Source: an uncultured Pseudomonadota bacterium
GTDB taxonomy: Bacteria; Myxococcota_A; UBA796; CAJQPC01
Reading direction: 5' to 3'
Assembly (NCBI GenBank): GCA_937915955.1
Contig: CALGIB010000804.1
Coordinates: forward strand, 1-27,961
DNA length: 27,961 nt
Positions 8,386-22,100 of this stretch are shown in pieces (position 1 is the stretch's first letter; each line of letters opens with the position of its first letter). Below the pieces are notes generated by a model, which saw only the letters and a program-made list of their open reading frames with translations, did not search any database and was not told where the DNA came from. The translations under genes were made by a program, and so were the position numbers.

Positions 8386-8973
8386 ATGCACCCGATCCAC
8401 GAAGGCGTCCGACGCTTCCAGGCCGAGGTCTTTCCCGGCCTGAGTGAGCGCTTCGCGGGGCTGGCCGAGGGCCAGTCTCCCCACTCGCTCTTCATCACGT
8501 GCTCCGACTCGCGCATCGATCCGGGGCTGGTCACCCAGTCGCGGCCCGGTGAGATCTTCGTGCAGCGGAACGCGGGCAACCTCGTGCCCGAGTACGGCCG
8601 GGACGAGGGCACGGCCTCGGCCGTCGAGTACGCCGTGGCCGCCCTCGGCGTGCAGCTCATCGTCGTCTGTGGCCACAGCGGCTGCGGCGCCATGGGCGCG
8701 CTGCTGAACCCGGGGTCCCTGGCGCTGCTCCCGCGCGTGGCCTCCTGGGTCGAGCACGCCGCCCCCACGGGCGCGGCGGTCGCCGACTACGGGCCAGCCC
8801 GTCAGCTGGACGGCGCCATCGAGCACAACGCCCTGCGCCAGCTCGACAACCTGCAGACCCACCCGAGCGTGCAGGTCGCGCTGGCCGAGGGCCGCCTGCG
8901 CCTGGAGGCCTGGGTCTACGACATCGCCAGCGGCAGCGTCCGGGTGGTCGGCTCGGTGGGGAGCGAGCTGTGA
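8386..8973 (+). CDS. can: Beta-class carbonic anhydrase
   Basis: GQSPHSLFITCSDSRIDP, GEIFVQRNAGNLVP, SAVEYAV, IVVCGHSGCGAM zinc ligands (C, D, H, C). Confidence 0.95.
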   Translation: MHPIHEGVRRFQAEVFPGLSERFAGLAEGQSPHSLFITCSDSRIDPGLVTQSRPGEIFVQRNAGNLVPEYGRDEGTASAVEYAVAALGVQLIVVCGHSGCGAMGALLNPGSLALLPRVASWVEHAAPTGAAVADYGPARQLDGAIEHNALRQLDNLQTHPSVQVALAEGRLRLEAWVYDIASGSVRVVGSVGSEL

Positions 8974-9041
8974 GGGGCGGGGGCCCCGCAAGGTGACGGT
9001 CCTGCCTTCGAGCTGACACAGACGCTCCATAGAACGTCGCC

Positions 9042-9920
9042 ATGAAGAAGCTCCTCCTCCTCGTCGCCGCCCCGGCCCTCGTCCTCGTCGCCTGCTCGCG
9101 CCCCGAGCCGGGCGCCAAGGGCTCGCGCGTGGTCCTCCAGAACAAGGGCTCCGACACCCTGGTCAACGTCGCCCAGGCCTGGGCCGAGGCCTACAAGGAG
9201 GTCGACCCGAACACGGCCATCGCCGTCACCGGCGGCGGCTCGGGCACGGGCATCTCGGCGCTGATCAACGGCACGGTGGACATCGCCAACGCCAGCCGCG
9301 AGATGAAGGACCAGGAGATCGCCTCGGCCAAGGCCAACGGGGTCGAGCCGGTAGAGTTCGTCGTCGGCTACGACGCGCTGGCGGTCTTCCTGCACCCCGA
9401 CAACCCCGCCACGTCGCTGTCCTTCGAGCAGCTGGCCGGCATCTACGGCGACGGCGGCGAGACGGTGTCCTGGTCCCAGCTGGGCCTGGACGTGCCCGGC
9501 TGCAGCTCGGGCGAGATCGTGGTGGTCAGCCGCCAGAACAACTCCGGCACCTACGCCTACTTTCAGGAGGTGGTGCTCGGCGGCAAGGACTTCAAGCTCG
9601 GCACCCGGGACATGCACGGCAGCAAGGATGTTGTCGACCTGGTCGAGAACACGCCCTGCGCCATCGGCTACAGCGGCCTGGCCTACGCCACGGAGCACAT
9701 CAAGAAGGCCTGCATCGGCGAAGCCGGCGCCTGCGTCGAGCCCACCGTCGAGGGCGCGATCAGCGGCGAGTACCCCATCGCGCGGTCGCTCTTGATGTAC
9801 ACCTCGGGCCAGCCCACGGGCGGCACCAAGGCCTACATGGACTGGATCCTCTCGGACGCCGGCCAGTGCATCCTGCTCGACAAGGGCTACGCGCCCGCCG
9901 CCAAGGTCAGCTGCAAGTGA
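9042..9920 (+). CDS. pstS: Phosphate ABC transporter substrate-binding lipoprotein
   Basis: Lipobox LVAC; KGSDTL, GGGSGTGISALINGTVDIANASR, SRQNNSGTY, IGYSGLAY, YPIARSLLMY. Confidence 0.96.
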   Translation: MKKLLLLVAAPALVLVACSRPEPGAKGSRVVLQNKGSDTLVNVAQAWAEAYKEVDPNTAIAVTGGGSGTGISALINGTVDIANASREMKDQEIASAKANGVEPVEFVVGYDALAVFLHPDNPATSLSFEQLAGIYGDGGETVSWSQLGLDVPGCSSGEIVVVSRQNNSGTYAYFQEVVLGGKDFKLGTRDMHGSKDVVDLVENTPCAIGYSGLAYATEHIKKACIGEAGACVEPTVEGAISGEYPIARSLLMYTSGQPTGGTKAYMDWILSDAGQCILLDKGYAPAAKVSCK

Positions 9921-10978
9921 GCGGGGCCCACCAGCGGCGTCTGCTCGAGGATCTCGACAAGATCCGTCGTCGCGTCGCGGCGGTGGGTGCCCGCGTCGAC
10001 GACGCGCTGGGCATGGCCGTGCACGCCCTGATGACGGGCGATCGAGGCCTGGCCGCCGAGACCGTGCTGAACGACTTCCCGATCAACCGCACGGTCCGTG
10101 AGCTGGACGCCGACTGCCACCGCTTCGTGGCCCGGCACCTGCCCAGCGCGGGCCACCTGCGCACGGTGTCCTCGGTCCTGCGCCTGAACATCGCGCTGGA
10201 GCGCATCGGCGACTACGCGGTGACCATCGCGCGGGAGACCGAGCAGCTGGGTGCGCCGCCGCCCGAGCCCCTGGCCTCGACCATGCAGGCCATGGCGGAC
10301 CAGTCCCGCAAGATGTACCGCCAGGCCATCGCCGCCTGGGTGGACCAGAACGCGGACCTGGCGCGCGGCACCAAGGGCATGGCCGGCTCGGTCGATGTCC
10401 TGCTGGACAGCGCCTGGAAGGAGCTGCTGCGCATGGGCAAGGAGCCCGGCGCGCCCTCGATGCGGCGCATGTTCGCGTTCCTCATCATCTGCTCGAACCT
10501 GGAGCGGGTCAGCGATCAGGCCAAGAACATCTGTGAGGAGGCCGTCTTCGCCGCCACGGGCGAGACCAAGCCGCCCAAGGTCTACAAGGTGCTCTTCGTC
10601 GACGAGGGCAACAGCCGGCTGTCCGTGCTGGCCGAGGCCATGGCGCACAAGGCCTTCCCCGAGTCGGGCCACTACACCTCGGCGGGCTGGAGCCCGGCCC
10701 CGGCGGTCGACCCCGAGCTGATCGCCTTCCTCGACGAGCGCGCGATGGAGCCCAGCCCCCACGTGCCCCAGAGCCTGGCCTCGATGATGCACAAGCTGCC
10801 CGCGCAGCACATCGTCGTCAGCCTGGCTGGCGACCCTCGCCCCCACCTCGGGTCGGTGCCGTTCAGCACGGTGGTGCTCGAGTGGTCCATCTCCGGTGAC
10901 CTGCCCGCCGCCACCGAGCAGCTGGCTGACAAGATCGCCTGGCTCATGGAGAAGTGCCGAGGAGAAGGCGCGCACTGA
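9917..10978 (+). CDS. phoU: PhoU fused to a C-terminal ArsC/LMW-PTP-like domain
   Basis: GTG overlaps the pstS stop; D..IN...ELD.DC, LERIGDYAV.IA, LERVSDQAKNICEEAVF PhoU motifs; tail KVLFVDEGNSRLSVLAEAMA...TSAG..PA..VDP. Confidence 0.9.
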   Translation: MSGAHQRRLLEDLDKIRRRVAAVGARVDDALGMAVHALMTGDRGLAAETVLNDFPINRTVRELDADCHRFVARHLPSAGHLRTVSSVLRLNIALERIGDYAVTIARETEQLGAPPPEPLASTMQAMADQSRKMYRQAIAAWVDQNADLARGTKGMAGSVDVLLDSAWKELLRMGKEPGAPSMRRMFAFLIICSNLERVSDQAKNICEEAVFAATGETKPPKVYKVLFVDEGNSRLSVLAEAMAHKAFPESGHYTSAGWSPAPAVDPELIAFLDERAMEPSPHVPQSLASMMHKLPAQHIVVSLAGDPRPHLGSVPFSTVVLEWSISGDLPAATEQLADKIAWLMEKCRGEGAH

Positions 10979-11889
10979 TGGCCGCTCCCTCGCCAGCCCG
11001 CCCGGGGGCGCGTGACCTCGCCTGGGCCGGTGACAAGCTGGCCCAGGGCGTGATCTTCCTGGGAGGCATCAGCGGCATCCTGCTGGTCATCGGCATCTTC
11101 GTGTTCGTGTCCCGCGAGGGCCTGGGCTTCGTGTCCAACGGCCTGGACCTGCGGGAGTTCCTCACCAGCCCGGCCTGGCGTCCCACCTCGAACCACCCCA
11201 CCTTCGGGGCCCTGGCGCTCATGGCCGGCACCGCCAGCGTCACGGGCCTGGCCATGCTGGTCTCGGTGCCTCTGAGCCTGGGCGCGGCCATCTTCATCGG
11301 CGAGTTCGCCAAAGGCCGCACCCGCGAGCTGCTCAAGGTGCTCATCGAGATGCTGGCGGCCATCCCCTCGGTGGTCTGGGGCTTCATCGGCCTGACGATG
11401 ATGAACGAGCTCATCATCGACGTCTTCAACGTGCCGGTGGGCCTCAACGTGCTCAACGCCGGCATCATCCTGGGCCTGATGGCGGCCCCCATCATGACGA
11501 CCATCGCCGAGGACGCGCTCAAGGCGGTGCCCGACGGCTACCGGCAGGCCGCCGAGGCCATGGGCGCCACCAGGTGGCAGGTCATCTGGCGGGTGGTCAT
11601 CCCGGCCGCCAAGAACGGCCTGGTCGCCGCGGTGTTGCTGGGCGTGGGCCGAGGCTTCGGCGAGACCATGGCCGTGCTCATGGCCAGCGGGCACAGCATC
11701 AACATCCCGACCAGCCCCTTCGACTCGGTGCGGGCCCTGACGGCCACCATCGCCGCCGAGCTGGGCGAGACCGCCGTGGGCAGCGAGCACTACCAGGCGC
11801 TGTTCTTCCTGGGCATCTTCCTCTTCGTCGTGACCTTCGCGATCAACCTCACGGCCGACCTCGTCGTCCGCGGCATCAAGAACGGCTGA
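10978..11889 (+). CDS. pstC: Phosphate ABC transporter permease PstC
   Basis: TGATG overlap with phoU; IEMLAAIPSVVWG, EDALKAVPDGYRQAAEAMGATRWQ, GRGFGETMAVLM. Confidence 0.96.
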   Translation: MAAPSPARPGARDLAWAGDKLAQGVIFLGGISGILLVIGIFVFVSREGLGFVSNGLDLREFLTSPAWRPTSNHPTFGALALMAGTASVTGLAMLVSVPLSLGAAIFIGEFAKGRTRELLKVLIEMLAAIPSVVWGFIGLTMMNELIIDVFNVPVGLNVLNAGIILGLMAAPIMTTIAEDALKAVPDGYRQAAEAMGATRWQVIWRVVIPAAKNGLVAAVLLGVGRGFGETMAVLMASGHSINIPTSPFDSVRALTATIAAELGETAVGSEHYQALFFLGIFLFVVTFAINLTADLVVRGIKNG

Positions 11890-11892
11890 GCG

Positions 11893-12762
11893 ATGTTCGG
11901 ACCCACCGCACGAACCGTCCAGGACCAGCTCGTCGAGCGCCGCGTGCGCGTCGGCCTGGGCCTCGTCACCGCCGTCCTCGTGCTGCCCGTGGTGCTCATC
12001 CTGGGGGTGCTCGTCGTCAAGGGCGGGCCCATGATCAGCATGGAGTTCCTGTTCTCGGATCCCACCAACGGGATGACCGAGGGCGGCATCTTCCCGGCCC
12101 TGATCGGCACGGTCTGGCTGGTGGGCTTCGCGCTGCTGTTCAGCGTGCCCGTTGGCATCGCCGCGGCGCTGTACCTGAGCGAGTACGCCCCGGACAACTG
12201 GGTGACCCGCGCCATCAACCTGGCCATCATCAACCTGGCCGGCGTGCCCAGCATCGTGCACGCGCTGTTCGGCCTGGGCGCCTTCGTGCTCTTCGCCGGC
12301 TTCGGCACCAGCATCCTGGCCGCCAGCCTGACCCTGGCCGTGATGACCTTGCCGGTGGTCATCGTCGCCACCCGCGAGTCGCTGCAGGCCGTGCCGATGG
12401 AGTTCCGCGAGGCCTGCTGGTCGATGGGCGCCACGCGCTGGCAGACCATCTGGCGCATCGTGCTGCCCAACAGCATCACCGGCATCCTCACGGGCGTCAT
12501 CCTGGAGGTCAGCCGCACCGCCGGAGAGACGGCGCCCATCATGTTCACGGGCGCGGCCTTCTTCCTGCCGTTCCTGCCCGAGAGCGTGTGGGACCAGACC
12601 ATGGCCATGAGCCTGCACCTGTTCGTGGTCTCCACGCAGGTGCCCGACGTGCCCGAGGCGCTGCCCTACGGCGTGGCCCTGGTGATGATCCTGATGGTCC
12701 TGACCATGAACGCGCTGTCCATCGGCTTCCGCATGTGGCTCCGAGGGAGGCGCAAGTGGTGA
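11893..12762 (+). CDS. pstA: Phosphate ABC transporter permease PstA
   Basis: GGIFPALIGT, YLSEYA, NLAGVPSIVHALFG, RESLQAVP, RTAGETAPI. Confidence 0.96.
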   Translation: MFGPTARTVQDQLVERRVRVGLGLVTAVLVLPVVLILGVLVVKGGPMISMEFLFSDPTNGMTEGGIFPALIGTVWLVGFALLFSVPVGIAAALYLSEYAPDNWVTRAINLAIINLAGVPSIVHALFGLGAFVLFAGFGTSILAASLTLAVMTLPVVIVATRESLQAVPMEFREACWSMGATRWQTIWRIVLPNSITGILTGVILEVSRTAGETAPIMFTGAAFFLPFLPESVWDQTMAMSLHLFVVSTQVPDVPEALPYGVALVMILMVLTMNALSIGFRMWLRGRRKW

Positions 12763-13520
12763 AGCTCTCGGTCCGCGACCTGCGCATCACCTACGGAGAG
12801 GGCCCCTCGGAGAAGGTGGCCCTGTCCGGCGTGAACCTGGACATCCACGAGCACGAGATCTTCGGCATCATCGGGCCCGCGAACAGCGGCAAGACCAGCT
12901 TCCTGCGGGCCATCAACCGCATGGACGAGTTCACCCTGGGCATGGACGTGCGGGGCTCGGTCAAGCTGGACGGCACCGAGGTGCGCGACTGGGCCAACGT
13001 CTACGCCCTCCGCCGCCGCATCGGCGTGGTCTTCCCGCTGCCCGTCGGCCTGCCCATGAGCGTGTACGACAACGTGGCGCTCTCGCCTCGCCTGCGCGGC
13101 GTCCGCAAGCGCTCGGTGCTGGACGAGAAGGTCGAGCAGTGCCTGACGCGCGCGGCGCTCTGGGACGAGGTCAAGGACCGCCTCGGCACGCTGGGCAGCC
13201 TGCTCTCGGGCGGCCAGCAGCAGCGCCTGACCATCGCCCGGGCGCTCTCGCAGGAGCCCGACCTGCTGCTGCTCGATGAGTTCTCCATCGCGGTAGACCC
13301 GGTCACCACCATGCGCATCGAGGACGTCCTGGTCGACCTGAAGCAGGACATGACCATCGTGCTGGTCACCAACCTCGTCCAGCAGGCCCGCCGCCTGGCC
13401 GACCGAACGGCCTTCTTCCTCATGGGCGAGTGCGTCGAGATCGCCGAGACCGAGGAGCTCTTCACCGGCGAGGTGAAGGACCCGCGCACCCGCGACTACG
13501 TGGACGGACGCTTTGGTTGA
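12759..13520 (+). CDS. pstB: Phosphate ABC ATPase PstB, copy 1 (degenerate Q-loop and H-switch)
   Basis: GTG overlaps the pstA stop; GPANSGKT, IGVVFPLP, LSGGQQQRLTIARAL, LLLLDEFSIAVDP, VTNLVQQARR, TRDYVDGRFG. Confidence 0.92.
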   Translation: MKLSVRDLRITYGEGPSEKVALSGVNLDIHEHEIFGIIGPANSGKTSFLRAINRMDEFTLGMDVRGSVKLDGTEVRDWANVYALRRRIGVVFPLPVGLPMSVYDNVALSPRLRGVRKRSVLDEKVEQCLTRAALWDEVKDRLGTLGSLLSGGQQQRLTIARALSQEPDLLLLDEFSIAVDPVTTMRIEDVLVDLKQDMTIVLVTNLVQQARRLADRTAFFLMGECVEIAETEELFTGEVKDPRTRDYVDGRFG

Positions 13521-14289
13521 CGCCACCGACAGCAGCGACGCGATCCGCACGCGCGACCTGAACCTCTGGTACGGGACCTTCCAGGCGCTGCACGACGTCA
13601 CGCTGGACATCCAGACCGGCGTGGTCACCTCGATGATCGGGCCCTCGGGCTGCGGAAAGAGCACGCTGCTGCGCTGCTTCAACCGCATCAACGAGCGCCT
13701 GGACTACGTGCGGACCACGGGCAGCGTCGAGATCCTGGGCCACGACATCCTGGCCCCCGAGGTCGAGATCCTGCAGGTCCGCAAGCGCGTGGGCATGGTC
13801 TTCCAGCGCCCCAACCCGCTGCCCTTCTCCATTCGGGACAACGTGCTCTTCGCGCACAGCCTGCACGCCCCCGACGCCAGCAAGCAGGCCCAGGACGAGC
13901 TGCTCGAGGGCGCCCTGCGCAAGGTGCTGCTCTGGGACGCGGTGAAGGACCGGCTGGACAGCCTGGCCACCAGGCTGTCTCTGGAGGAGCAGCAGAAGCT
14001 CTGCATCGCGCGCTTGCTGCCCGTGAAGCCCAGCGTGCTGCTGATGGACGAGCCCTGCTCCGCCCTGGACCCCGACGGGACCCGCGCCGTCGAGGAGCTG
14101 ATCTGGGAATTGGCCGAGGAGTACAGCATCCTCATCGTCACCCACAACATGGCCCAGGCGCGCCGGGCCAGCGACCGCTGTGTGTTCATGCTGATGGGCA
14201 AGGTCATCGAGCACGGGCCCACCTCCGAGATGTTCGTCACCCCCCGGGACGAGCGCACCGCCGCCTACATCGAGGGTCGCTACGGCTGA
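13513..14289 (+). CDS. pstB: Phosphate ABC ATPase PstB, copy 2 (degenerate signature)
   Basis: GPSGCGKST, GMVFQRPNP, LSLEEQQKLCIAR, LMDEPCSALDP, VTHNMAQARR, TAAYIEGRYG. Confidence 0.93.
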   Translation: MVDATDSSDAIRTRDLNLWYGTFQALHDVTLDIQTGVVTSMIGPSGCGKSTLLRCFNRINERLDYVRTTGSVEILGHDILAPEVEILQVRKRVGMVFQRPNPLPFSIRDNVLFAHSLHAPDASKQAQDELLEGALRKVLLWDAVKDRLDSLATRLSLEEQQKLCIARLLPVKPSVLLMDEPCSALDPDGTRAVEELIWELAEEYSILIVTHNMAQARRASDRCVFMLMGKVIEHGPTSEMFVTPRDERTAAYIEGRYG

Positions 14290-14339
14290 GTCGGCCAGGC
14301 CGGCTCGAGCGACCGCCCACCACCACCGAAGGAACGCTC

Positions 14340-15449
14340 ATGCTCCTCATGGCTTGGATCACCGCTCTGTCCACCGCCCAGGCTGCCGACGAGGCGCCGG
14401 TCGAGACCGGCTACGACAAGGGCTTCTACGCCTCCCAGGGCGAGAACTACCTGATCCGGTTCCAGGGTCGGGTGCAGCCGCGCTTCACCTTCGAGTCCAA
14501 CGGAGACTTCAGCTCCACCCAGGAGCACTTCGAGGTCAGCCGGGCCCGGTTCAAGATGAGCGGCCACGTCTTCGACCCCCGCGTGAAGTACTACCTCCAG
14601 CTCGACGCCGGCAAGGGCGCGGTCACGCTGAAGGACTACTTCGTGGACGCCTACCTCGGCGACAGCGAGGTCTTCGTGCGGGCCGGGCAGGCCAAGATCT
14701 GGGCCAGCCGGCAGCAGATGGCCAGCACAGCGAACCTGCAGATGGTCGAGCGCGCCATCACCGACGAGCACTACGGCTATGGCCGCGACGTCGGCATCGC
14801 CGCCTACCACTCGCTCGGCAAGGAAGGCGGCGTCGAGTGGGTGGTGGGCGTGTACAACGGCACCGGCGACAAGGGCGTGTTCCGCGGCGAGACCACCGTG
14901 GACCTGAGCACCGGCGAGGGGGACGTCGAGGGCAAGTTCAGCAACGTGCCGGCCAAGATGATGCCCAAGGTGGCCGCCACGCTCGGCTGGGCCAACGACG
15001 GCGACGTCATCAAGGAGGCCGACTTCAAGCCGGACGCGGACCTGCGCTTCGGCGTCGGCGGCAGCGTCGTAGCGGCCTTCGACCACGACGGCGGGGACGA
15101 CGGCGCGGTGGTCGCCAACCTGGACTACATGCTCAAGCACCGCGGCCTGACGCAGACCTCGGCGGTCTACGTCGGCGTGGCGCAGAGCGGCGGCAGCTGG
15201 ACGTCGCAGGCCTACGAGAGCCTAGGCTTCCACGCGCAGGTCGGCTACACCCTCGCCGGCAAGGTCCAGCCCGCCCTCCGCTACGCGATGATCCTGCCCT
15301 CCCAGGGCGAGCGCACCAGCGAGGTGGGCGTGGGCGTGAACGGGTACTGGCACCGGGACGGCTGGAAGGTCCAGGCCGACGTGAACCGGCAGCAGACCGG
15401 GGCCGAGGTCGCCTACCTGGGTCGGACGCAGCTGCAGCTCTCGTTCTGA
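14340..15449 (+). CDS. Outer-membrane porin, OprO/OprP (phosphate-selective) family
   Basis: Signal peptide; RFQGRVQPRF, FEVSRARFKMSG, LKDYFVD, VRAGQAK, GRDVG amphipathic strands; C-terminal QLQLSF; position after pst genes. Confidence 0.82.
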   Translation: MLLMAWITALSTAQAADEAPVETGYDKGFYASQGENYLIRFQGRVQPRFTFESNGDFSSTQEHFEVSRARFKMSGHVFDPRVKYYLQLDAGKGAVTLKDYFVDAYLGDSEVFVRAGQAKIWASRQQMASTANLQMVERAITDEHYGYGRDVGIAAYHSLGKEGGVEWVVGVYNGTGDKGVFRGETTVDLSTGEGDVEGKFSNVPAKMMPKVAATLGWANDGDVIKEADFKPDADLRFGVGGSVVAAFDHDGGDDGAVVANLDYMLKHRGLTQTSAVYVGVAQSGGSWTSQAYESLGFHAQVGYTLAGKVQPALRYAMILPSQGERTSEVGVGVNGYWHRDGWKVQADVNRQQTGAEVAYLGRTQLQLSF

Positions 15450-15467
15450 GTGTGCTACGTCGTGGCG

Positions 15468-17864
15468 ATGAGCCGTGACACCAAGCGCCTTCACGTCATC
15501 AGCCGCCACGGCGAGTACAACTTCCAGACCGGCATGATCACCGCGACGCTGCTGCGTCGGGGGGTGCCCATGGACCAGGCCTTCGAGCTGGCCCGCGAGC
15601 TGCGGCGCCGCCTCGAGGGCCGGGAGCGCATCGAGACCGGCGAGCTGGGCGAGCTGCTGCGGGCGCTGGTCCGCGAGCGCCTCGGTGACCTCGTCGACGA
15701 GCCGGCGGCCCAGCCCGAGAGCGCGCCGGTCACGGTCCTCAGCCGCCGAGGCCCGCTGGCCTTCTCCCAGGGCATCTTCCTGCGGCGCATGTCCCACATC
15801 GGCCTGTCCTCGGCTCAGGCCCACCAGGTCCTCGACGAGCTGGTGACCTGGCTGCACGCTCGCCGAAAGCCGACGGTGGAGCGCCAGCACCTGGACCGGC
15901 ACGTCGTCCGGCTGCTGACCCGCATCTGCGGGGTGGCTCCCGCTCGCCGCTACCGCCTCGTGCGCTGGCTGGCCGAGCAGCACGAGCCCGTCGTCATCTT
16001 CATCGCGGGCGCCACCGGCACGGGCAAGTCCACGCTGGCCATGGAGCTGGGCGTGCGCCTGGGCATCCGCATGGTGACCAGCACCGACCTGATCCGCGAG
16101 ACCATGCGGGCCGTGCTCTCGCCGGAGCTGGTGCCGGGCCTGCACGACCACAGCTTCACAGGCATGCTCCAGGGCGGCACGGTGCTGACCGATCCGCGGG
16201 AGCGGGTGCTGGCCGGCTTCCGGCAGCAAGCCCAGCAGGTCAGCGTGGGCATCCGGGCCGTGATCCGCCGAGCCCTGCGCGAGGGCGTGTCCATCATCGT
16301 CGAGGGCACCCACCTGCTACCCCCCTTTGACCAGTACGTGCCCGCCGACGCTCAGGTCCACACCGCCGGCCTGACCCTGGCCGTGCAGGACCCCGCCGAG
16401 CACCTGGCCCGCTTCCCCGAGCGGGACCGGGGGCACCGGTCGGCTCAGCCCTACATGGACTCCTACCAGTCGGTGCGCTGGATCCACGACGACCTGCTGA
16501 CCCTGGCCGAGGACCACGAGGAGGTCGTCGTGCTGGCTCGGGGCGACGAGGACGTGACCGCCGCCGAGGCGCTGACCTTCCTGTCCCAGGCCCTGCCGGT
16601 GGACGGCGAGCCGGTCGAGCCCAGCGCGCCCGAGGCGGCCCCGGAGCGCAGCCGGCGGCTCTACCTGATCCTGGACGGCCTGGGCGACGAGCCCATCCCC
16701 GCCCTGGGCGGGCAGACCCCGCTGCAGGCGGCCTCGACCCCCACGCTGGATGCGCTGGCCAGCTCGGGGGCGCAGGGCGTGGTGGCCCTGGACTGGGGCG
16801 AGGTGCACCCGAACACGGCGGACGCCATGGCCCTGCTGTTGGGCATGGACGTCGGCGTCGGGCAGCTGGGGCGCGGCCTGCTCGAGGCCATGGGCAGCGG
16901 CGTGTCGATCCCGCGGCCGTCGGTGGTCTTCCGAGGCAACCTGGCCACGCGGGAGCCCGGCGGCCTGATCAGCGACCGCCGCGCGGGCCGGATCCGACAG
17001 GCGCCCGAGCTGCTCGAGGGCTTGCGGCGGGTGCAGCTCGAAGGCGGCATCCAGGGCAGCATCCTGCCCAGCCACGAGCACCGGGTCACGGTGGTCCTGC
17101 AGGGCCGGGGGCTCTCCGCCGAGGTCTGCGCCACGGACCCGGGGAACCGGGCGCCGGAGTGGAGGGTGCAGCGGGCTCGCCCCCTGGACGACTCACCCGA
17201 GGCGCTGCGCACCGCGCGGGCCCTCAACCAGATGCTGGATCTGGCCGCCCTGAGGCTGGCCAACCACCCGGTCAACGTGCGCCGGGCCGAGCAGGGGCTG
17301 CCGGTGGCCAACTGCGTCATCACCCGGGGCGCGGCCCACACCGACAGCCTGGGCGAGGTCCCCCCGCCGCGTCACGAGGCCGCCGTGGTCTCGGGCTGCC
17401 GCACGGTGCTGGGGGCTGCGCGCCTCTGCGGCATGCACGTGGTGACGGACGCGCGCATGACGGGCAGCGTCGACACGGACCTGGAGGCCAAGTTCCAGGC
17501 CGTCGAGACGCTGCTGGCCAGCTGGAGCACGGTCGTCCTGCACCTCAAGGGGGCCGACGTCGCGGCCCACGACCGCCGGCCCGAGCTCAAGCGTGACTTC
17601 CTGAGCCGGGCGGACCAGGCCCTCGGTCGCTTCCTCGAGCGGCTCCGGCGGAGCGGTCGCGACCTGACCGTGCTGGTCACCGCGGACCACGGCACCTCCT
17701 CGCTCACCGGCGTCCACCTCTACGAGCCGGCGCCGGTGCTGCTGGGTCAGTGGGAGGGGCCCGACTCGCCCGGCGGCGCGGTCTTCGACGAGCGCAGCGC
17801 GCAGGACGGCGAGCTCGGACGCATCGACGCTGCGCGGCTGCTGGAGCTCCTGGCCGAGCGCTGA
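15468..17864 (+). CDS. Fusion: two ATP-cone-like repeats + archaeal-type 2-phosphoglycerate kinase + ApgM-type cofactor-independent phosphoglycerate mutase-like domain (798 aa)
   Basis: Kinase: EPVVIFIAGATGTGKSTLAMELGVRLGIRMVTSTDLIRETMR...LVPGLHDHSF...RRALREGVSIIVEGTHLLP. Mutase: LILDGLGDEP...TPLQAASTPTLDALA, HLKGADVAAHD, VTADHGT, GVH..EPAPVLL. Confidence 0.85.
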   Translation: MSRDTKRLHVISRHGEYNFQTGMITATLLRRGVPMDQAFELARELRRRLEGRERIETGELGELLRALVRERLGDLVDEPAAQPESAPVTVLSRRGPLAFSQGIFLRRMSHIGLSSAQAHQVLDELVTWLHARRKPTVERQHLDRHVVRLLTRICGVAPARRYRLVRWLAEQHEPVVIFIAGATGTGKSTLAMELGVRLGIRMVTSTDLIRETMRAVLSPELVPGLHDHSFTGMLQGGTVLTDPRERVLAGFRQQAQQVSVGIRAVIRRALREGVSIIVEGTHLLPPFDQYVPADAQVHTAGLTLAVQDPAEHLARFPERDRGHRSAQPYMDSYQSVRWIHDDLLTLAEDHEEVVVLARGDEDVTAAEALTFLSQALPVDGEPVEPSAPEAAPERSRRLYLILDGLGDEPIPALGGQTPLQAASTPTLDALASSGAQGVVALDWGEVHPNTADAMALLLGMDVGVGQLGRGLLEAMGSGVSIPRPSVVFRGNLATREPGGLISDRRAGRIRQAPELLEGLRRVQLEGGIQGSILPSHEHRVTVVLQGRGLSAEVCATDPGNRAPEWRVQRARPLDDSPEALRTARALNQMLDLAALRLANHPVNVRRAEQGLPVANCVITRGAAHTDSLGEVPPPRHEAAVVSGCRTVLGAARLCGMHVVTDARMTGSVDTDLEAKFQAVETLLASWSTVVLHLKGADVAAHDRRPELKRDFLSRADQALGRFLERLRRSGRDLTVLVTADHGTSSLTGVHLYEPAPVLLGQWEGPDSPGGAVFDERSAQDGELGRIDAARLLELLAER

Positions 17865-17866
17865 GC

Positions 17867-19024
17867 TCAGCCCTTGGGCGTGACCCGGCGCCTCAGCTGC
17901 GCCTCGTCGTAGACGACCTCGACGCGGTCCAGCTCGGACTCGCTGTAGTCGCCCATGCCGAAGCCAGCGACCTCGACCAGGTCGTTCAGGCTCTGCTTGC
18001 GCCGGGCCTCGGTGACCTCGTCGTCGACGTCCTCGATGTCCTCGTCGACCTGCAGCGCCTCGGCCAACAGGGCATCGCAGCCCTTCAGCTGGCCCGTCAC
18101 GTTGCGCAGCACGGACTCCCACCACCAGGGCTGGACCGCCGCCGGGGGCCTCTGGAAGTCCTCCTTGCTGATCCGGTACAGCCACACGGGGCTGGTCGCC
18201 ACGCAGCTGGCGGTGCGGGGGCCCGGCTCGACCAGCGCGTTGCAGCCGAACTGGTCGCCCGCCTTCAGCGTGATCAGGCGCTTGGCGCCGCCGCGCACGC
18301 AGCGCAGCACGTCGACGCTGCCGGACGCGACGATGTACATGGCGTCCAGGCGCTCGCCGGAGTCGCCCTCCATGACCACGACCTCGCCCTCGCGGACCCC
18401 CACGGGCTGGAACACGGTGGTCAGGGCCAGGACGACCTCGGGCGGCGCCTCGGCCAGCCCGGGCTGCATGCGCAGCAGGGGAGGGAGCGCCGGGGGCGGA
18501 TCGGCGGGCAACCCGGGCACCAGGGCGCGCCACATGCGCAGCAGGCCCGAGACCTCCTTGCGGCCGGGCGCCTTCGCGTCGCTGTCGGCCACGCGAGCCA
18601 GCCAGGCCGTGGCGCGCCGGACGCGCCGGACCGTGCCGATGGACGCCTGTTGCAGCAGGACCCCGTAGACGCTGTTGCGGTCCTGGCGCAGGCGGCGCAG
18701 ATGCAGGGTGTCCATGACGAGCAGCGTCGAGGCCTCCTTGGCGCGGACGTTCGCGGACCGGACGCTCCCGGACTGGAACGCGCCGGCCTCACCGACCAGT
18801 TCACCCGCGTAGATCGCGCCGAGGATCTCGCCTGCAAGCTCCACTTCCAGACAGCCCTTGTGCACGATCGCGAGACGATCCGCGGGCTCGCCGCGGCCCC
18901 AGACGAGCTCGCCCGGCTTCAGGCGCTGGACCCTCCAGGCGGCCGCTGAGAACTGGAGGTCCGCGGGATCGGCAGCTTTCAGGGTGGTTGAGGCCATCAG
19001 GGCTTTGAGCAGGCGTTCGTTCAT
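17867..19024 (-). CDS. Tandem cyclic nucleotide-binding domain protein, no effector domain (385 aa)
   Basis: CNB-A: LKPGELVWGRGEPADRLAIVHKG...GELVGEAGAF...VRSANVRA; CNB-B: VREGEVVVMEGD..DAMYIVASGSVDV...GDQFGCNALVEPGPRTASC; acidic tail. Confidence 0.88.
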   Translation of the reverse strand: MNERLLKALMASTTLKAADPADLQFSAAAWRVQRLKPGELVWGRGEPADRLAIVHKGCLEVELAGEILGAIYAGELVGEAGAFQSGSVRSANVRAKEASTLLVMDTLHLRRLRQDRNSVYGVLLQQASIGTVRRVRRATAWLARVADSDAKAPGRKEVSGLLRMWRALVPGLPADPPPALPPLLRMQPGLAEAPPEVVLALTTVFQPVGVREGEVVVMEGDSGERLDAMYIVASGSVDVLRCVRGGAKRLITLKAGDQFGCNALVEPGPRTASCVATSPVWLYRISKEDFQRPPAAVQPWWWESVLRNVTGQLKGCDALLAEALQVDEDIEDVDDEVTEARRKQSLNDLVEVAGFGMGDYSESELDRVEVVYDEAQLRRRVTPKG

Positions 19025-19070
19025 GCCCGGAGTATGGCATTCCCGGCGTCCAAACTCCGGTGTGGGCGCG

Positions 19071-19079
19071 TGATAGACT
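19071..19079 (+). promoter_or_regulatory. Candidate extended -10 element (TG-A-TAGACT) for the cyclase operon
   Basis: Matches TGnTAnnnT, 28 nt upstream of ATG 19108 in the divergent intergenic region; motif match only. Confidence 0.35.
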
Positions 19080-19107
19080 GCCGCCGCCATCACCTGAGCA
19101 GACGACC

Positions 19108-22100
19108 ATGAATCAGCAGCCTCCGGGGGGCCAGAAGACTCTGGCCAGCTACCTCCCGGCCCTCCACCTGGAGCGCCTCGGAGGGACCCAGGACGGTCCC
19201 AGCGTGGAGGGTCTGCACGGCGCCGTCCTGCTCGTCGACGTGCGGGGCTTCACCAGGCTGACCGCCCGCTACGCCGAGAAGGGGGCCCGAGGCGCAGAGC
19301 TGCTGTCCGAGGTGCTGAACCTCGGCTTCGGCGCCATCATCGACGTCATCGCCGAGCACGGCGGCGACGTGCTGAGCTTCGCGGGCGACGCCGTCCTGGC
19401 CGTCTGGCCCTGCACACCGGATCGGCTCGAACAGGCCGTGGTCCTGGCGGCCGAGGCCGGGCTGCGCGTGCACGAGGTGCAGGGGCACCCCGACGAGCCG
19501 CTGCGGCTGCGCTCCAGCGTGGGGGTAGGCCCCCTGCAGCTCTTCCACGTGGGCGGCGCCGCGGGTCGCTGGATGCTGCTGGCCACGGGCGAGCCCCTGG
19601 CCCAGGTGGGCCAGGCCGACAAGGTCTGCGAGTCCGGTGAGCTGGTGCTCTCGCTCGAGGCCTGGGCCCGGGTCCAGGACCGCTGCGCTGGCGAGCTGAG
19701 GGGGACCGCGGTCCGACTCAGCGCCATCAAGAAGCCCGTCCCGGCGCCCGGCGCGGGGCCGCTCCCGACCACCGACGTGGACCTCGAGCCCTACGTGCCC
19801 GAGGTGGTCTGCGGCCGCCGCGGCCGGGCCGAGTACCTGGCCGAGTTCCGTCCGCGCATGACGATCCTGTTCGTCAATCTGCCGGACATCGCCCCCGAGG
19901 GCGCCGGCGCGCTCGAGCGCATCCAGCAGGCCGCGCTGCTCATGCAGGAGGAGCTGGCCCGCTTCGAGGGCGCGGTCTACCAGTTCCTGACCGACGACAA
20001 GGGCAGCACCCTGCTCGGCGCCTTCGGCCTTCCCGGCATGGCCCACGAGGACGACGCGGTCCGGGGCTGCCTGGCCGCCCAGAGCATCCGCGAGCGCCTG
20101 ACCGAGGCCGGCATGGCCTCGGCCGTCGGCGTCGCCACCGGTCGGCTGTTCTCGGGCTCCTACGGCAACGATCGGCGCCGCAGCTTCGCCCTGGTCGGCA
20201 CCACGATGAACCTGGCCGCGCGGCTGATGCAGGCCAGCGAGGGCGACGGCCTGCTCGTCTGCCCCACCACGCGCGAGGCCGCCGGCACCCGCTTCGACTT
20301 CGAGGAGCTCGAGCCCGTCACGGTCAAGGGCATCGACGAGCCAGTGCAGGTCTACCGACCCCACGGCCTGCACGGGCGGCAGCACGGATCGGGCGACACG
20401 CTGATCGGTCGCGCGGCTGAGCGGGCCTACCTGGACACGGTGATGGACGGCAGCGGCCCGCGCATCACGGTGTTCGAGGGCGAGGCCGGCATCGGCAAGA
20501 GCCAGCTGCTCCGCTACGCCGTGGGCCTGGCCGAGGCCCAGGACGTCACGGTGCTCGAGGGCTCGGCGGACTCGATCGAGACCGACAGCTCCTGGTTCAT
20601 GTGGCGCCCCGTCCTGGCCGAGCTGCTGGAGCTCGACGAGGGCCAGGAGCACGCCCAGGCGCGCCTGATGGAGCTCATCGGCGGCGACCCGACCCGCGAG
20701 AGGTGGGCGCCGGTCTTCGAGGACGTGCTCGAGCTGGGCCTGCAGGCCAACGAGATCTCCGCGGAGATGTCCGGACCGGCTCGCGCTGACGCCGTGCGGA
20801 CCCTGCTGATCGAGGTCCTGCGCAACTGCGGCAAGGAGCGTCGCTTGATGCTGCGCGTCGAGGACGCCCACTGGCTGGACTCGGCCAGCTGGGGCGGACT
20901 GCTGCACGTGGCCCGCGCCGTGGACACCCTGCGCATCCTGGTCTCGACCCGCCCGCCGTCCGACCCCGTGCCGCCCGAGCACCTGGCCCTGGTGGAGATC
21001 GAGGACTGCGAGCGCCGGGTCCTGGGCGCCCTGTCCGCCGCCGAGGCCGAGCAGCTGGTCTGCTACCGGCTCGAGGTCGACGCGCTGCCGCCCAGCGTCG
21101 CCGCCCTGCTGGCCCGGCAGGCCGAGGGCCACCCGCTCTTCACCGAGGAGCTCGCCTGGTCGCTGGTCGAGCAGGGCGCCCTCGAGATCCGGGGCCGTCA
21201 GGCCGTGCTGACCATGGGCGCGGACGAGCTGGCCGCTCAGTCCTTCCCCGACAGCGTCCAGGGGGTCATCACCAGCCGCATCGACCGGCTGCCGCCGGAC
21301 ACCCAGCTGATCCTCAAGGTGGCCTCGGTCATCGGTCGGGTCTTCCAGATGCACATCCTGTCGGCCGTGAACCCGGTGACCCAGGACGGCGGCCGCCTGC
21401 AGGCCGAGGCCGAGGACCTGGTCCGCCACGACCTGACCCTCATCGAGCGGCCCGCCCCCGACCCCGCCTGGATCTTCAAGCACGCGCTGATCCAGGACGT
21501 GGCCTACAACCTGCTGGCCTTCCGGCAGCGGCACAAGCTGCACAAGGCCGTGGCCGAGTGGTACGAGTCGCAGTTCGAGCACAACCTGGCCAGCTACTAC
21601 CCCGTGCTGGCCCACCACTACGCGCTGGCCGAGGACCAGCCCAAGACGCTCGAGTACCTGGACCTGGCGGGCACGCGAGCCCTGCGCAACGGCGCCAGCG
21701 GCGAGGCCGTCAGCTTCTTCCTCCGCGCCCTCGATCTGGGCCAGGACAAGGAGGCCCTGGCCAGCGCCGAGACCCGGCTGCGGCAGGCCCGCTGGTGGCG
21801 CTCGCTGGGGCTGGCCTACTACGGCCTGGGCCGCCGGCTCGAGGCCCGCGATGCCTTCCTCCGGACGATGGAGATCGCCGGCTACCCCTTCGCCAGCAGC
21901 CTGCCGGGTCAGCTCTTCCAGCTGTCGCGCGAGTACGTCTACCAGGCCCTGCTGCTGGCGGCGCCCAAGCTGCTGCTCGAGGGCGACGAGACGCGCCGGC
22001 TGCTGGCCGCCGAGGCCGCGGACGCCGCGCAGTACGTCTCGACGACCTACTACTTCGACAAGGAGAACCTGCCGATGTTCGTGGCAGCGCTCTCCTGCGC

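What the first reader, a model, noticed from the sequence alone, without database searches (positions are those of the whole stretch)
15468..17864. Archaeal-type 2-phosphoglycerate kinase fused to a phosphoglycerate-mutase-like domain at the end of a pst operon
Seen: one 798-aa ORF, 18 nt after the porin stop, joins two ATP-cone-like repeats, a 2PGK-like P-loop kinase and an ApgM-like metalloenzyme. Established: in methanogens 2PGK makes 2,3-bisphosphoglycerate from 2-PG as the first step to cyclic 2,3-diphosphoglycerate, and the mutase supplies 2-PG from 3-PG. Inference: a channelling enzyme (3-PG to 2-PG to 2,3-BPG) co-expressed with phosphate uptake, producing a phosphate store, solute or signal of P status, conceivably read by the PhoU pseudo-phosphatase domain or the dead PstB site. 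No cDPG synthetase is in this window.
Basis: partly seen in the sequence, partly recalled or inferred. Interest (0 to 1): 0.75.

Follow-up and report, generated by a model that had tools for sequence, protein, structure and literature searches.

The report
Phosphate-linked 2PGK–phosphoglycerate mutase fusion enzyme
A real, widely conserved bacterial enzyme joins a 2-phosphoglycerate-kinase-like domain to an archaeal-type phosphoglycerate-mutase-like domain and sits next to phosphate-uptake genes of two unrelated types, which points to an undescribed phosphoglycerate-based branch of phosphate homeostasis.

Summary
Window 15468-17864 (+) is one intact 798-aa ORF, 18 nt after the porin stop. It has two ATP-cone-like modules, a 2PGK-family P-loop kinase and an ApgM-family metalloenzyme, with catalytic residues intact. 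It is not an assembly join: more than 120 full-length homologues of about 800 aa exist, and relatives only 31-38% identical in the kinase part share the architecture.

The pst linkage holds and is broader than proposed. In 49 species-level loci, all from uncultured MAGs mostly labelled Myxococcota:
- 28 lie within 10 kb of the same atypical pstS-phoU-pstCA-pstB1B2 operon.
- 10 lie within 10 kb of a PiT/PhoU_div phosphate transporter.
- Phosphate porins and PhoBR-like regulators recur, and one distant locus has Ppx.
- Pho-box repeats fill the shared pstS/fusion intergenic region in relatives.

The mutase nucleophile is Thr, not Ser, in every fusion examined. Every domain scores below the curated family cut-offs. 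GpmI is the housekeeping mutase, and no cofactor-dependent mutase was found.

Best reading (about 0.5): an ATP-driven enzyme that makes 2,3-bisphosphoglycerate from 3-PG/2-PG as a sink, buffer or signal for imported phosphate. A kinase/phosphatase pair in the manner of PFK-2/FBPase-2 is a live rival. The chemistry is untested, and cDPG synthetase could not be searched. First-stage notes of this scan recorded the same fusion in three other genomes.

The parts
15468..17864 (+). Fusion gene, 798 aa: two ATP-cone-like modules, a 2PGK-family kinase and an ApgM-family metalloenzyme. It is the last gene of the + strand cluster.
15492..15683 (+). ATP-cone-like module 1 (residues 9-72). The motif V10..G15..F19-Q20-x-G22 is nearly invariant in the family.
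   Evidence: Secondary structure of the AF2 model; conservation; Pfam ATP-cone hits on homologues.
15732..15929 (+). ATP-cone-like module 2 (residues 89-154).
   Evidence: AF2 model; marginal Pfam ATP-cone hit at residues 112-168, E 0.11; NF003259 alignment begins at residue 89.
15990..16592 (+). P-loop kinase domain of the 2PGK family (residues about 175-375). The Walker A motif G181-S188 lies at 16008-16031.
   Evidence: In the Foldseek search of PDB, the hits that are not ApgM or phosphomutases are NMP-kinase-like.
16614..16640 (+). Low-confidence interdomain linker (residues 383-391, pLDDT below 50).
16653..17858 (+). ApgM-type (alkaline-phosphatase superfamily) domain, residues 396-797. 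Putative nucleophile T450 (codon 16815-16817). Residues at the metal-ligand motifs: D403, D697, H701, D740, H741, H750.
14340..15449 (+). Outer-membrane porin, a homologue of Porin_O_P (OprO/OprP-type) proteins. It has no Pfam or NCBIfam hit of its own.
   Evidence: About 50% identical to the L018/L019 porin genes, whose products carry PF07396. No Pfam or NCBIfam hit on the window protein itself.
9042..9920 (+). pstS, the phosphate-binding protein.
   Evidence: TIGR02136 scores 224 bits against a cut-off of 206.6; PBP_like_2.
9917..10978 (+). Long PhoU of about 353 aa: a PhoU domain plus a C-terminal tail that resembles LMW-PTP/ArsC only weakly.
   Evidence: PhoU TIGR02135 scores 126.8 bits against a cut-off of 130.25; LMWPc E 0.03 at residues 242-305.
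10954..12762 (+). pstC (10954-11889) and pstA (11893-12762), the permeases.
   Evidence: TIGR02138 265.6 bits and TIGR00974 257.8 bits, both above their cut-offs.
12759..14289 (+). Two PstB-like ATPase genes: pstB1 (12759-13520) and pstB2 (13513-14289).
   Evidence: TIGR00972 scores 275.6 and 312.7 bits, both below the cut-off of 343.2.

Best explanation
The gene encodes a cytosolic enzyme with three kinds of module.
- Two divergent ATP-cone-like sensor modules.
- A P-loop kinase of the 2-phosphoglycerate-kinase family.
- An archaeal-type, metal-dependent phosphoglycerate-mutase-like domain whose nucleophile is Thr.

Proposed chemistry (inferred). The mutase-like domain binds phosphoglycerate and interconverts 3-PG and 2-PG. 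The kinase uses ATP to phosphorylate 2-PG to 2,3-bisphosphoglycerate.

Proposed role (inferred). The enzyme belongs to the phosphate-uptake module of these bacteria. Its product is a sink or buffer for phosphate that has just entered through Pst or Pit, or a read-out of phosphorus status. The cone modules would gate the enzyme.

Shown: the architecture, intact catalytic residues, conservation of the fusion, and its genomic coupling to phosphate transporters, porins, regulators and Pho boxes.

Not shown: the substrate, the product, the direction of net flux and the physiological role.
For: Architecture and fold. Searches give the domains. The ApgM domain matches solved archaeal iPGMs: 2ZKT at E 8e-51 by sequence and Foldseek E 2e-27. 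Against AlphaFold models of Swiss-Prot ApgM, the TM-score by hit is about 0.8.

Active sites.
- The Walker A motif, D207, R210 and R214 are invariant in 120 fusions.
- The remaining kinase core residues are kept in most one-, two- and three-cone 2PGK-family representatives: H226, S229, Q254, R268, E279, G280, H282, R319, R324, Y329.
- D403, T450, D697, H701, D740, H741 and H750 are invariant. So are the motif residues R489 and N491 (RGNLAT), D503-R504-R505-x-G507-R508 (DRRAGR), E537-H538-R539 and D557-P558.
- The DRRAGR, HR, RGA, H-x-K-x-x-D-x-x-x-HD and DH-x-T motifs also appear in the solved archaeal ApgMs.

Closest families. Both domains score best against 2PGK and ApgM, not against their divergent offshoots.

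Conservation of the fusion. More than 120 full-length homologues were listed. Fusions at 31-38% kinase identity share the architecture.

Phosphate coupling, in 49 species-level loci:
- 28 have the same pstS-phoU-pstC-pstA-pstB1-pstB2 operon within 10 kb.
- 10 have PiT and/or PhoU_div within 10 kb.
- 38 have some phosphate transporter or PhoU gene within 10 kb, and 39 when porins are counted.
- Three of the 10 loci with none of these are contigs shorter than 7 kb.

Arrangements differ, which argues against inherited synteny alone:
- divergent from pstS;
- at the 3' end of the operon, as in the window's clade;
- convergent with the end of the operon.

On the fusion tree, the window's clade is separated from the large divergent clade by rows that are unlinked to pst or linked only to a porin.

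Other recurring neighbours. PhoB/PhoR-like pairs and Porin_O_P recur. A distant fusion lies between Ppx-GppA and PiT plus PhoU_div.

Pho boxes. Three yTGTCAC repeats with an 11-bp period lie in the divergent intergenic regions. Fourteen of the 18 such pairs found in 421 kb fall within those 7.6 kb.

Not housekeeping. GpmI scores above its cut-off in 39 of 41 relatives, including those that carry the fusion. The fusion itself was found in only 9 of 41.

Literature.
- 2PGK makes 2,3-DPG from 2-PG (PMC12136491).
- cDPG has been proposed as a phosphate and energy store (PMC10690619).
- The rice 2PGK homologue Lpa1 controls seed phosphorus storage (PMC4844318).
Against: - No biochemical data exist for any member of this clade.
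- All four family scores are below the curated cut-offs: 226 against 603, 211 against 343, 277 against 489, 265 against 320.
- The nucleophile is Thr, whereas the archaeal ApgMs and the stand-alone ApgM of G039 have Ser. H228 replaces a Ser that is conserved in other 2PGK-family classes.
- With GpmI present, a second mutase to supply 2-PG seems redundant.
- Kinase-only paralogues beside pst show that the kinase can work without the mutase-like domain.
- In most genomes the Pho boxes point toward pstS and lie only about 40-170 nt from the fusion start. PhoB could therefore repress the fusion, or leave it alone, rather than co-induce it.
- No Pho box of this type lies upstream of pstS in the window.
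- PPK1 presence and absence gives no clean complementary pattern.
- pTM 0.63 leaves the relative position of the two active sites undetermined.
Confidence: 0.5

Rival explanations
1. An opposing kinase/phosphatase pair. The kinase makes 2,3-BPG, or a related bisphosphate, and the ApgM-like domain removes a phosphate through a phospho-Thr enzyme. The protein would then set the level of a signal metabolite rather than build a store. This is the same logic as eukaryotic PFK-2/FBPase-2, a P-loop kinase fused to a mutase-family phosphatase. PhoU-family gatekeepers or regulators would read the signal.
For: - The domain order matches: a P-loop kinase followed by a mutase-like phosphoryl-transfer domain. 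The PFK-2/FBPase-2 analogy is from my own knowledge.
- The nucleophile is Thr in every fusion examined but Ser in the archaeal and G039 stand-alone ApgMs.
- All scores are below the ApgM cut-offs.
- GpmI already equilibrates 3-PG and 2-PG.
- Two sensor modules are typical of a regulatory enzyme.
- A PhoU-family gene is the recurring neighbour in both the Pst and the Pit contexts, and one locus (L068) has PhoU alone.
Against: - The cap-domain motifs of true ApgM are fully kept, which fits an unchanged mutase.
- A Thr nucleophile also occurs in a true mutase, phosphopentomutase (own knowledge; the T85 variants among the hits).
- No receptor for 2,3-BPG is known in bacteria.
- Nothing here distinguishes a hydrolase from a mutase.
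Confidence: 0.2
2. The same architecture acts on another substrate. The kinase would phosphorylate a different phosphorylated hydroxy compound, and the metalloenzyme would move or remove that phosphate. Candidates are an inositol monophosphate, as proposed for plant Lpa1, or another phospho-acid.
For: - The 2PGK family is functionally diverse. It includes mevalonate-3-phosphate 5-kinase (NF008996), and Lpa1 has been proposed as an InsP1 kinase (PMC4844318).
- The ApgM family includes PhpG and a proposed homoserine kinase.
- All scores are below the equivalog cut-offs.
- H228 and T450 are clade-specific changes.
Against: - The best scores are to 2PGK and ApgM proper: 211-277 bits against 37-189 bits for the offshoots.
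- The core residues and motifs of both parent families are retained.
- The two parent activities are consecutive steps on phosphoglycerate, which is the most economical explanation for a conserved fusion.
Confidence: 0.2
3. The first step of a bacterial cyclic-2,3-diphosphoglycerate pathway, making a compatible solute or thermoprotectant as in methanogens.
For: 2PGK is the first enzyme of that pathway (PMC12136491). cDPG levels have been linked to phosphate storage (PMC10690619).
Against: - cDPGS is reported only from hyperthermophilic methanogens (PMC10690619).
- No recurring third enzyme appears beside the fusion in 54 loci clustered.
- The sequencing runs that hold the window are labelled metagenome, aquatic metagenome or seawater metagenome, and none names a hot habitat.
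- cDPGS itself could not be searched here.
Confidence: 0.05
4. The gene is simply the housekeeping glycolytic mutase carrying a fused accessory domain, or it is an assembly or frameshift artefact.
For: No GpmI or GpmA scoring above its cut-off was found in the window's own genome.
Against: - That genome is only 74% complete.
- GpmI is present in 39 of 41 relatives, including fusion carriers.
- The fusion is patchy, found in 9 of 41 relatives.
- The best 120 hits are uninterrupted full-length homologues on independent contigs.
- The reading frame is open and the model is confident across both halves.
Confidence: 0.02

Closest known systems
Archaeal 2-phosphoglycerate kinase (COG2074; Methanothermus fervidus 2PGK; NCBIfam NF003259 and NF008994)
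   Same: It has an ATP-cone followed by a P-loop kinase. The Walker A motif and the D207/R210/R214, H226/S229, Q254, R268, E279-G-x-H282, R319, R324 and Y329 positions are shared by most family representatives. This is the best-scoring kinase family.
   Different: - It has two cone-like modules instead of one, and both have diverged from the Pfam consensus.
- Scores are below the curated cut-offs.
- H228 replaces a conserved Ser.
- It is fused to a mutase-like domain.
- It is bacterial, and the runs that hold the window are labelled metagenome, aquatic or seawater.
- No cDPGS partner is known.
- It sits beside phosphate transporters.
Archaeal-type cofactor-independent phosphoglycerate mutase ApgM (TIGR00306; PDB 2ZKT, 3KD8, 3IDD)
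   Same: It has the same fold, with TM-score by hit about 0.8. The residues at the metal-ligand motifs are invariant. The cap-domain motifs DRRAGR, HR, RGA and DH-x-T are shared with the solved archaeal ApgMs.
   Different: The nucleophile is Thr450 instead of Ser in every fusion examined. The score is 265 bits against a cut-off of 320. It is not the housekeeping mutase, because GpmI is present in relatives.
PFK-2/FBPase-2 (eukaryotic 6-phosphofructo-2-kinase / fructose-2,6-bisphosphatase). Analogy only, from my own knowledge.
   Same: One polypeptide carries an N-terminal P-loop kinase and a C-terminal domain from a phosphoglycerate-mutase-type phosphoryl-transfer family. Its product is a bisphosphorylated metabolite.
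   Different: The C-terminal fold is unrelated: histidine-phosphatase superfamily there, alkaline-phosphatase superfamily here. The substrates differ. No evidence here shows that the ApgM-like domain hydrolyses anything.
Plant LPA1 (rice low phytic acid 1), a 2PGK homologue
   Same: It is a 2PGK-family kinase whose genetics tie it to phosphorus storage (PMC4844318).
   Different: It is eukaryotic and has no mutase fusion. Its proposed substrate is inositol monophosphate, and its biochemistry is also unresolved.
Classical pstSCAB-phoU Pho-regulon operon
   Same: PstS, PstC and PstA score above their curated cut-offs. Relatives have Pho-box-like repeats at 11-bp spacing upstream of pstS. OprO/P-type porins and PhoBR-like pairs lie nearby.
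   Different: phoU is internal and carries a long tail. There are two divergent pstB genes, both below the cut-off. A porin and the kinase-mutase fusion are attached.

Membership tests
2-phosphoglycerate kinase family (COG2074 / NF003259 / NF008994) | Whole-protein score above the curated equivalog cut-off. | tested here: not met
   NF008994 scores 226 bits against 603. NF003259 scores 211 bits against 343.
2-phosphoglycerate kinase family (COG2074 / NF003259 / NF008994) | P-loop and the conserved polar core residues of the family. | tested here: met
   Walker A G181-S188, D207, R210 and R214 are invariant in 120 fusions. These residues plus H226, S229, Q254, R268, E279, G280, H282, R319, R324 and Y329 are kept in most of 126 representatives of all length classes. 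H228 is Ser elsewhere.
2-phosphoglycerate kinase family (COG2074 / NF003259 / NF008994) | N-terminal ATP-cone. | tested here: inconclusive
   The model shows two modules that I read as ATP-cone topology, and homologues carry Pfam ATP-cone hits. The window protein itself reaches only E 0.11. The ligand is unknown.
2-phosphoglycerate kinase family (COG2074 / NF003259 / NF008994) | ATP-dependent phosphorylation of 2-PG to 2,3-BPG. | not testable with these tools
   This needs an enzyme assay.
ApgM, archaeal-type cofactor-independent phosphoglycerate mutase (TIGR00306 / NF003104) | Whole-protein score above the curated cut-off. | tested here: not met
   TIGR00306 scores 265 bits against 320. NF003104 scores 277 bits against 489.
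ApgM, archaeal-type cofactor-independent phosphoglycerate mutase (TIGR00306 / NF003104) | The fold, and the bimetal ligand set of the alkaline-phosphatase superfamily. | tested here: met
   Foldseek finds 2ZKT at E 2e-27, and Swiss-Prot ApgM models at TM-score by hit about 0.8. D403, D697, H701, D740, H741 and H750 are invariant. Their assignment as metal ligands is by motif correspondence with iPGM, from my own knowledge.
ApgM, archaeal-type cofactor-independent phosphoglycerate mutase (TIGR00306 / NF003104) | Serine nucleophile in the G-S-D motif. | tested here: not met
   T450 occupies this position in the window protein and in all 120 aligned fusions, as well as in the distant fusions. The solved archaeal ApgMs and the stand-alone ApgM of G039 have Ser.
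ApgM, archaeal-type cofactor-independent phosphoglycerate mutase (TIGR00306 / NF003104) | Cap-domain motifs shared with true ApgM. | tested here: met
   DRRAGR, E/x-HR, RGA and DH-x-T are shared with 2ZKT and 3KD8 and are kept in close and distant fusions. That these motifs bind the substrate is my inference; no ApgM-substrate complex was examined.
Pho regulon / pst operon member | Physical linkage to phosphate-transport genes across genomes. | tested here: met
   Of 49 species-level loci, 28 have pst and 10 have PiT/PhoU_div within 10 kb, and 38 have some phosphate transporter or PhoU gene. Several arrangements occur.
Pho regulon / pst operon member | A Pho box in the control region. | tested here: inconclusive
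   Relatives have clear triple repeats at 11-bp spacing in the shared pstS/fusion intergenic region, oriented toward pstS. The window has none upstream of pstS. No expression data were found; only DNA runs hold the window.
cDPG biosynthesis pathway (2PGK plus cDPGS) | Presence of cyclic 2,3-diphosphoglycerate synthetase in the genome. | not tested
   No tool gave me a cDPGS sequence or a family accession. The literature reports it only from hyperthermophilic methanogens (PMC10690619). No recurring third enzyme lies beside the fusion.

The most novel reading that the evidence does not exclude
The protein is a bacterial counterpart in logic to PFK-2/FBPase-2. A sensor-gated kinase and a mutase-derived phosphatase on one chain would set the level of 2,3-bisphosphoglycerate, or a close relative, as an intracellular phosphorus-status messenger. 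That messenger would tune Pst and Pit transporters through PhoU-family gatekeepers. This would be a second-messenger layer of phosphate homeostasis not described in bacteria.
Probability: 0.15. Interest if true: 0.85.

Novelty: new variant of a known kind. Interest (0 to 1): 0.66.

Why it matters
Bacterial phosphate homeostasis is usually explained by three things: the transporters Pst and Pit, the PhoR/PhoB/PhoU control circuit, and polyphosphate. Here a conserved and apparently undescribed enzyme, whose two halves act on phosphoglycerates in archaea, is tied to phosphate uptake. The tie holds across two unrelated transporter families, phosphate porins, Pho boxes and, in one distant locus, an exopolyphosphatase gene.

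If it makes 2,3-BPG, that metabolite would gain a role in bacteria as a phosphate sink, buffer or signal. The widespread non-methanogen 2PGK family (COG2074), including plant LPA1, would gain a physiological context. The hypothesis can be tested directly with a recombinant protein.

The carriers are uncultured MAGs, mostly labelled Myxococcota. The sequencing runs that hold the window include aquatic and seawater metagenomes.

Tried and rejected
- Complex prediction of the window's PhoU with residues 1-390 of the fusion. The tool gave no verdict. This is no evidence either way.
- Sequence search of PDB for the kinase half. Only ApgM structures were returned, and no 2PGK structure matched at E up to 0.01.
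- Word-indexed homologue search with residues 1-390. It had little reach. The exhaustive representative search was needed to see the one-, two- and three-cone classes and the distant fusions.
- Search for a Pho box in the window with the relatives' consensus. It gave one match where 3.2 are expected by chance, so none is real.
- Promoter and terminator scan of 8300-19200. It found no promoter-like site and three terminator-like sites, a number at chance level.
- PPK1 presence and absence as a test of 'replaces polyphosphate'. The pattern is mixed: not found in the fusion carriers G000, G007 and G010, present in G008, and mixed among non-carriers. Not informative.
- Search for RNA-seq runs. Only DNA metagenome runs hold the window, so co-transcription could not be checked.
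- cDPGS search. I could not obtain a sequence or family accession from any tool, so this was not done.
- Literature searches. No paper describing this fusion or its pst linkage was found in the library.
- Rejected: the ApgM domain as the housekeeping mutase.
- Rejected: 2,3-BPG as a primer for a cofactor-dependent mutase. No GpmA scores above its cut-off in any of 41 genomes.
- Rejected: an assembly artefact.


Full report
**1. What is in the window**

Window 15468-17864 (+) is a single open frame of 798 codons. In-frame GTG codons at 15450 and 15462 are alternative starts, and the database copy is 800 aa. The gene is the last in a same-strand run:
- pstS, 9042-9920
- a long phoU, 9917-10978
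- pstC, 10954-11889
- pstA, 11893-12762
- two pstB-like genes, 12759-13520 and 13513-14289
- a porin, 14340-15449

PstS, PstC and PstA score above NCBI's curated cut-offs. PhoU and both PstB copies fall just below theirs. No terminator-like site lies between genes in this run. A two-domain cNMP-binding gene on the opposite strand ends 2 nt after the fusion's stop.

**2. Domain anatomy**

Residues 9-384 match the 2-phosphoglycerate kinase models NF008994 (226 bits) and NF003259 (211 bits). Residues 396-796 match the ApgM models NF003104 (277 bits) and TIGR00306 (265 bits), and Pfam PhosphMutase and Metalloenzyme. All four NCBIfam scores are below the curated cut-offs. The functionally divergent relatives score much lower:
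- mevalonate-3-phosphate 5-kinase, 37 bits
- PhpG, 189 bits
- proposed homoserine kinase, 163 bits

An AlphaFold2 model built on 120 homologues has mean pLDDT 89.8 and pTM 0.63. It shows:
- the same module twice, a beta-hairpin followed by helices, at residues 9-72 and 89-154, which I read as ATP-cone topology from my own knowledge of that fold
- a P-loop kinase at about residues 175-375
- a disordered linker at 383-391
- the metalloenzyme domain

Pfam's ATP-cone model reaches only E 0.11 on the window protein. It hits homologues clearly. The cones are therefore real but divergent, and their ligand is open.

Foldseek places the C-terminal half with the solved archaeal iPGMs 2ZKT, 3KD8 and 3IDD (E about 1e-25 to 1e-27). 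It also matches Swiss-Prot ApgM models at TM-score by hit about 0.8. The remaining hits are NMP-kinase-like folds, which fit the kinase half.

**3. Catalytic residues**

In 120 aligned fusions the following are invariant:
- kinase: the Walker A motif (G181-S188), D207, R210, R214, H228, S229, F230, H282, R315, R319, R324 and Y329
- metalloenzyme: D403, T450, D697, H701, D740, H741 and H750, plus R489 and N491 (RGNLAT), D503-R504-R505-x-G507-R508 (DRRAGR), E537-H538-R539 and D557-P558

The kinase core residues are also kept in most of 126 representatives of the one-cone (about 300 aa), two-cone (about 390 aa), roughly 490-aa and fusion classes of the 2PGK family. Position 228 is the exception: it is Ser outside this clade.

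In the metalloenzyme, the position of the nucleophilic Ser of archaeal ApgM (the G-S-D motif) is Thr in the window protein, in all close fusions and in fusions only 31-38% identical in the kinase part. A stand-alone ApgM in relative G039 and the PDB proteins have Ser.

Both domains therefore look active. The cap motifs shared with true ApgM are retained. The Ser-to-Thr change is a signature of the fusion clade.

**4. The fusion is real and old**

A word-indexed search returned 325 significant proteins. The best 120 are all 764-857 aa, cover 95-100% of the query at 46-78% identity, and come from many independent contigs and sources.

An exhaustive search with the kinase half found 1382 cluster representatives. 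Among them are further proteins of about 800 aa at 31-38% identity, and Pfam confirms these as ATP-cone plus kinase plus ApgM.

A scan of one genome per prokaryote species found 49 species with the full fusion and 3 with a kinase-only form. All are MAGs. Most are labelled Myxococcota, Polyangiaceae or 'Deltaproteobacteria'; some carry other labels such as Enterobacterales or Rickettsiales.

Among 41 relatives of the window's genome, 9 have a match and 7 of those matches are full-length. Neither same-genus genome carries the fusion: G001 (95% complete) gives only a weak partial match, and G002 (100% complete) gives none.

An assembly or frameshift origin is excluded.

**5. Linkage to phosphate uptake**

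I ran tblastn with the window's proteins, and with proteins taken from related loci, against the 49 full-length species-level loci:
- 28 have the same atypical operon (pstS, long phoU, pstC, pstA, two pstB) within 10 kb.
- 10 have a PiT (PHO4) transporter and/or its PhoU_div partner within 10 kb.
- 38 have some phosphate transporter or PhoU gene, and 39 when porins are counted.
- Three of the 10 loci with none of these are contigs shorter than 7 kb.

The arrangement varies:
- Usually the fusion is divergent from pstS across 100-380 bp.
- In the window's clade it is at the 3' end of the operon (L017, L019 and L020).
- Once it is convergent with the end of the operon (L053).
- Unverified first-stage notes of this scan describe it at the 5' end of a pst operon in another genome, and coupled to a PhoU-like gene behind a Na/Pi cotransporter in a third.

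On a maximum-likelihood tree of the fusion proteins, the window's clade groups with the copies from its own taxonomic family. Those copies are unlinked to pst: some sit beside a porin or a PiT/PhoU_div pair, others beside none of these. The window's clade is separate from the large 'divergent' clade. Linkage to pst therefore exists in at least two unrelated layouts.

Other recurring neighbours:
- Porin_O_P-type porins
- PhoB/PhoR-like two-component pairs
- Ppx-GppA on one side and PiT plus PhoU_div on the other, in a distant fusion

Clustering all ORFs of 54 loci found no other recurrent neighbour family. A kinase-only paralogue sits divergent from a full pst operon in a genome that also holds a complete fusion next to a lone phoU (L070 and L068).

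**6. Pho boxes**

In the 24 divergent intergenic regions the hexamer TGTCAY is eight-fold enriched. It occurs as three direct repeats of yTGTCAC at an 11-bp period, all oriented toward pstS. Fourteen of the 18 pairs spaced 11 or 22 bp apart, in 421 kb of locus DNA, fall within these 7.6 kb. This matches the classical PhoB-box layout as I know it.

The boxes lie about 40-170 nt from the fusion's start and face away from it. Co-induction, repression and independence are all possible for the fusion in those genomes. The window has no such box before pstS. Its fusion is probably read through from the operon, which is an inference.

**7. What it is not**

- It is not the housekeeping mutase. Canonical GpmI scores above its cut-off in 39 of 41 relatives, fusion carriers included. 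Its absence from the window's genome is best put down to 74% completeness.
- Its product is not needed to prime a cofactor-dependent mutase. No GpmA scores above its cut-off in any of the 41 genomes.
- The window's operon holds the only PstC scoring above its cut-off in that genome.
- PPK1 gives no clean complementary pattern.

**8. Mechanism**

The two parent activities are consecutive steps on phosphoglycerate. The most economical reading is therefore ATP-dependent formation of 2,3-bisphosphoglycerate from 3-PG through 2-PG, gated by the cone modules. Its place next to Pst, Pit, porins and Pho boxes suggests a physiological role: handling phosphate that has just entered the cell, as a sink or buffer, or reporting phosphorus status.

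Literature gives partial precedent:
- 2PGK makes 2,3-DPG (PMC12136491).
- cDPG has been proposed as a phosphate and energy store (PMC10690619).
- The rice 2PGK homologue LPA1 controls seed phosphorus storage, and its substrate is still uncertain (PMC4844318).
- Thermus and Deinococcus were noted to share both COG2074 and COG3635 with archaea (PMC1274311).

The main rival is an opposing kinase/phosphatase pair that sets the level of a signal metabolite, as PFK-2/FBPase-2 does. Three observations favour it:
- the clade-specific Thr nucleophile
- the redundancy of a second mutase where GpmI exists
- the recurring PhoU-family neighbour in both transporter contexts

A different substrate also remains possible. 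None of these readings can be separated without an assay.

**9.

The suggestion that the product is read by the PhoU tail or by the degenerate PstB site loses force, because PiT-linked copies lack both features. A complex prediction of PhoU with the kinase half gave no verdict. A cDPG pathway is unlikely on literature grounds but was not tested.

**10. Novelty**

Public annotations call these proteins 'hypothetical', 'alkaline phosphatase family protein' or iPGM. Three literature searches found no description of the fusion or of its link to phosphate transport. The domains are known. The conserved fusion, its Thr nucleophile and its coupling to two kinds of phosphate transporter are new. First-stage notes of this scan recorded the same fusion in three other genomes. 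None had been followed up.

Noticed in passing
L028, L045, L051 and 10 other divergent loci (intergenic region between pstS and the fusion): Three direct repeats of yTGTCAC at an 11-bp period, oriented toward pstS, followed about 10 nt later by a TA-ending -10-like element. This looks like a Pho-box consensus for these MAGs. Fourteen of the 18 spaced pairs in 421 kb lie in these 7.6 kb.
   Followed up: yes
L070:10001-11149 and L068:10001-12385 (same MAG): One genome holds two copies. A kinase-only paralogue (two cones plus kinase, 419 aa, P0125) is divergent from a full pst operon with a porin. A complete fusion sits next to a lone phoU. This suggests that the kinase half is the part tied to pst.
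   Followed up: partly
window 9042-17864 against relatives G001-G021: Neither the long PhoU nor the fusion was found in the two same-genus genomes (95% and 100% complete). The long PhoU is nearly absent from the whole taxonomic family, although the fusion tree places the window's copy with that family. The pst-porin-fusion cluster may have been acquired or rearranged recently, or the 28-kb contig may be mis-binned in a MAG of 1044 contigs that is 74% complete.
   Followed up: partly
window 9917-10978: The PhoU protein is about 120 aa longer than usual. Its tail gives only a weak LMW-PTP hit (PF01451, E 0.03, residues 242-305). Long PhoU genes accompany nearly all the pst operons linked to the fusion.
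   Followed up: partly
window 12759-14289: Two different PstB-like ATPase genes overlap by 8 nt. Both score below the PstB equivalog cut-off (276 and 313 bits against 343). The pair is conserved in all the linked pst operons.
   Followed up: partly
window 14340-15449: The porin gene has no Pfam or NCBIfam hit of its own. It is about 50% identical to neighbours' porins that carry PF07396 (Porin_O_P). It is a divergent phosphate-porin subfamily that current profiles miss.
   Followed up: partly
window 17867-23148: A protein with two cNMP-binding domains on the minus strand ends 2 nt after the fusion's stop. It is divergent from an adenylate-cyclase/AAA_16/TPR (STAND-like) gene of 1362 aa, which heads Rieske oxygenase and methyltransferase genes.
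   Followed up: no
window 7403-8973: A LysR-family regulator and a beta-carbonic anhydrase lie directly upstream of pstS on the same strand. No Pho box lies in the 68-nt gap before pstS.
   Followed up: partly
L077:1571-7599: A fusion only 32% identical in the kinase part lies between an exopolyphosphatase (Ppx-GppA) gene and a PiT plus PhoU_div pair. This links the enzyme to polyphosphate turnover as well.
   Followed up: partly
L008 (G039:C34:4956-6143): This is the only stand-alone ApgM scoring above its cut-off among the 41 relatives (460 bits, Ser nucleophile). It lies inside an open frame of 1160 aa, so it may itself be part of a different fusion.
   Followed up: no
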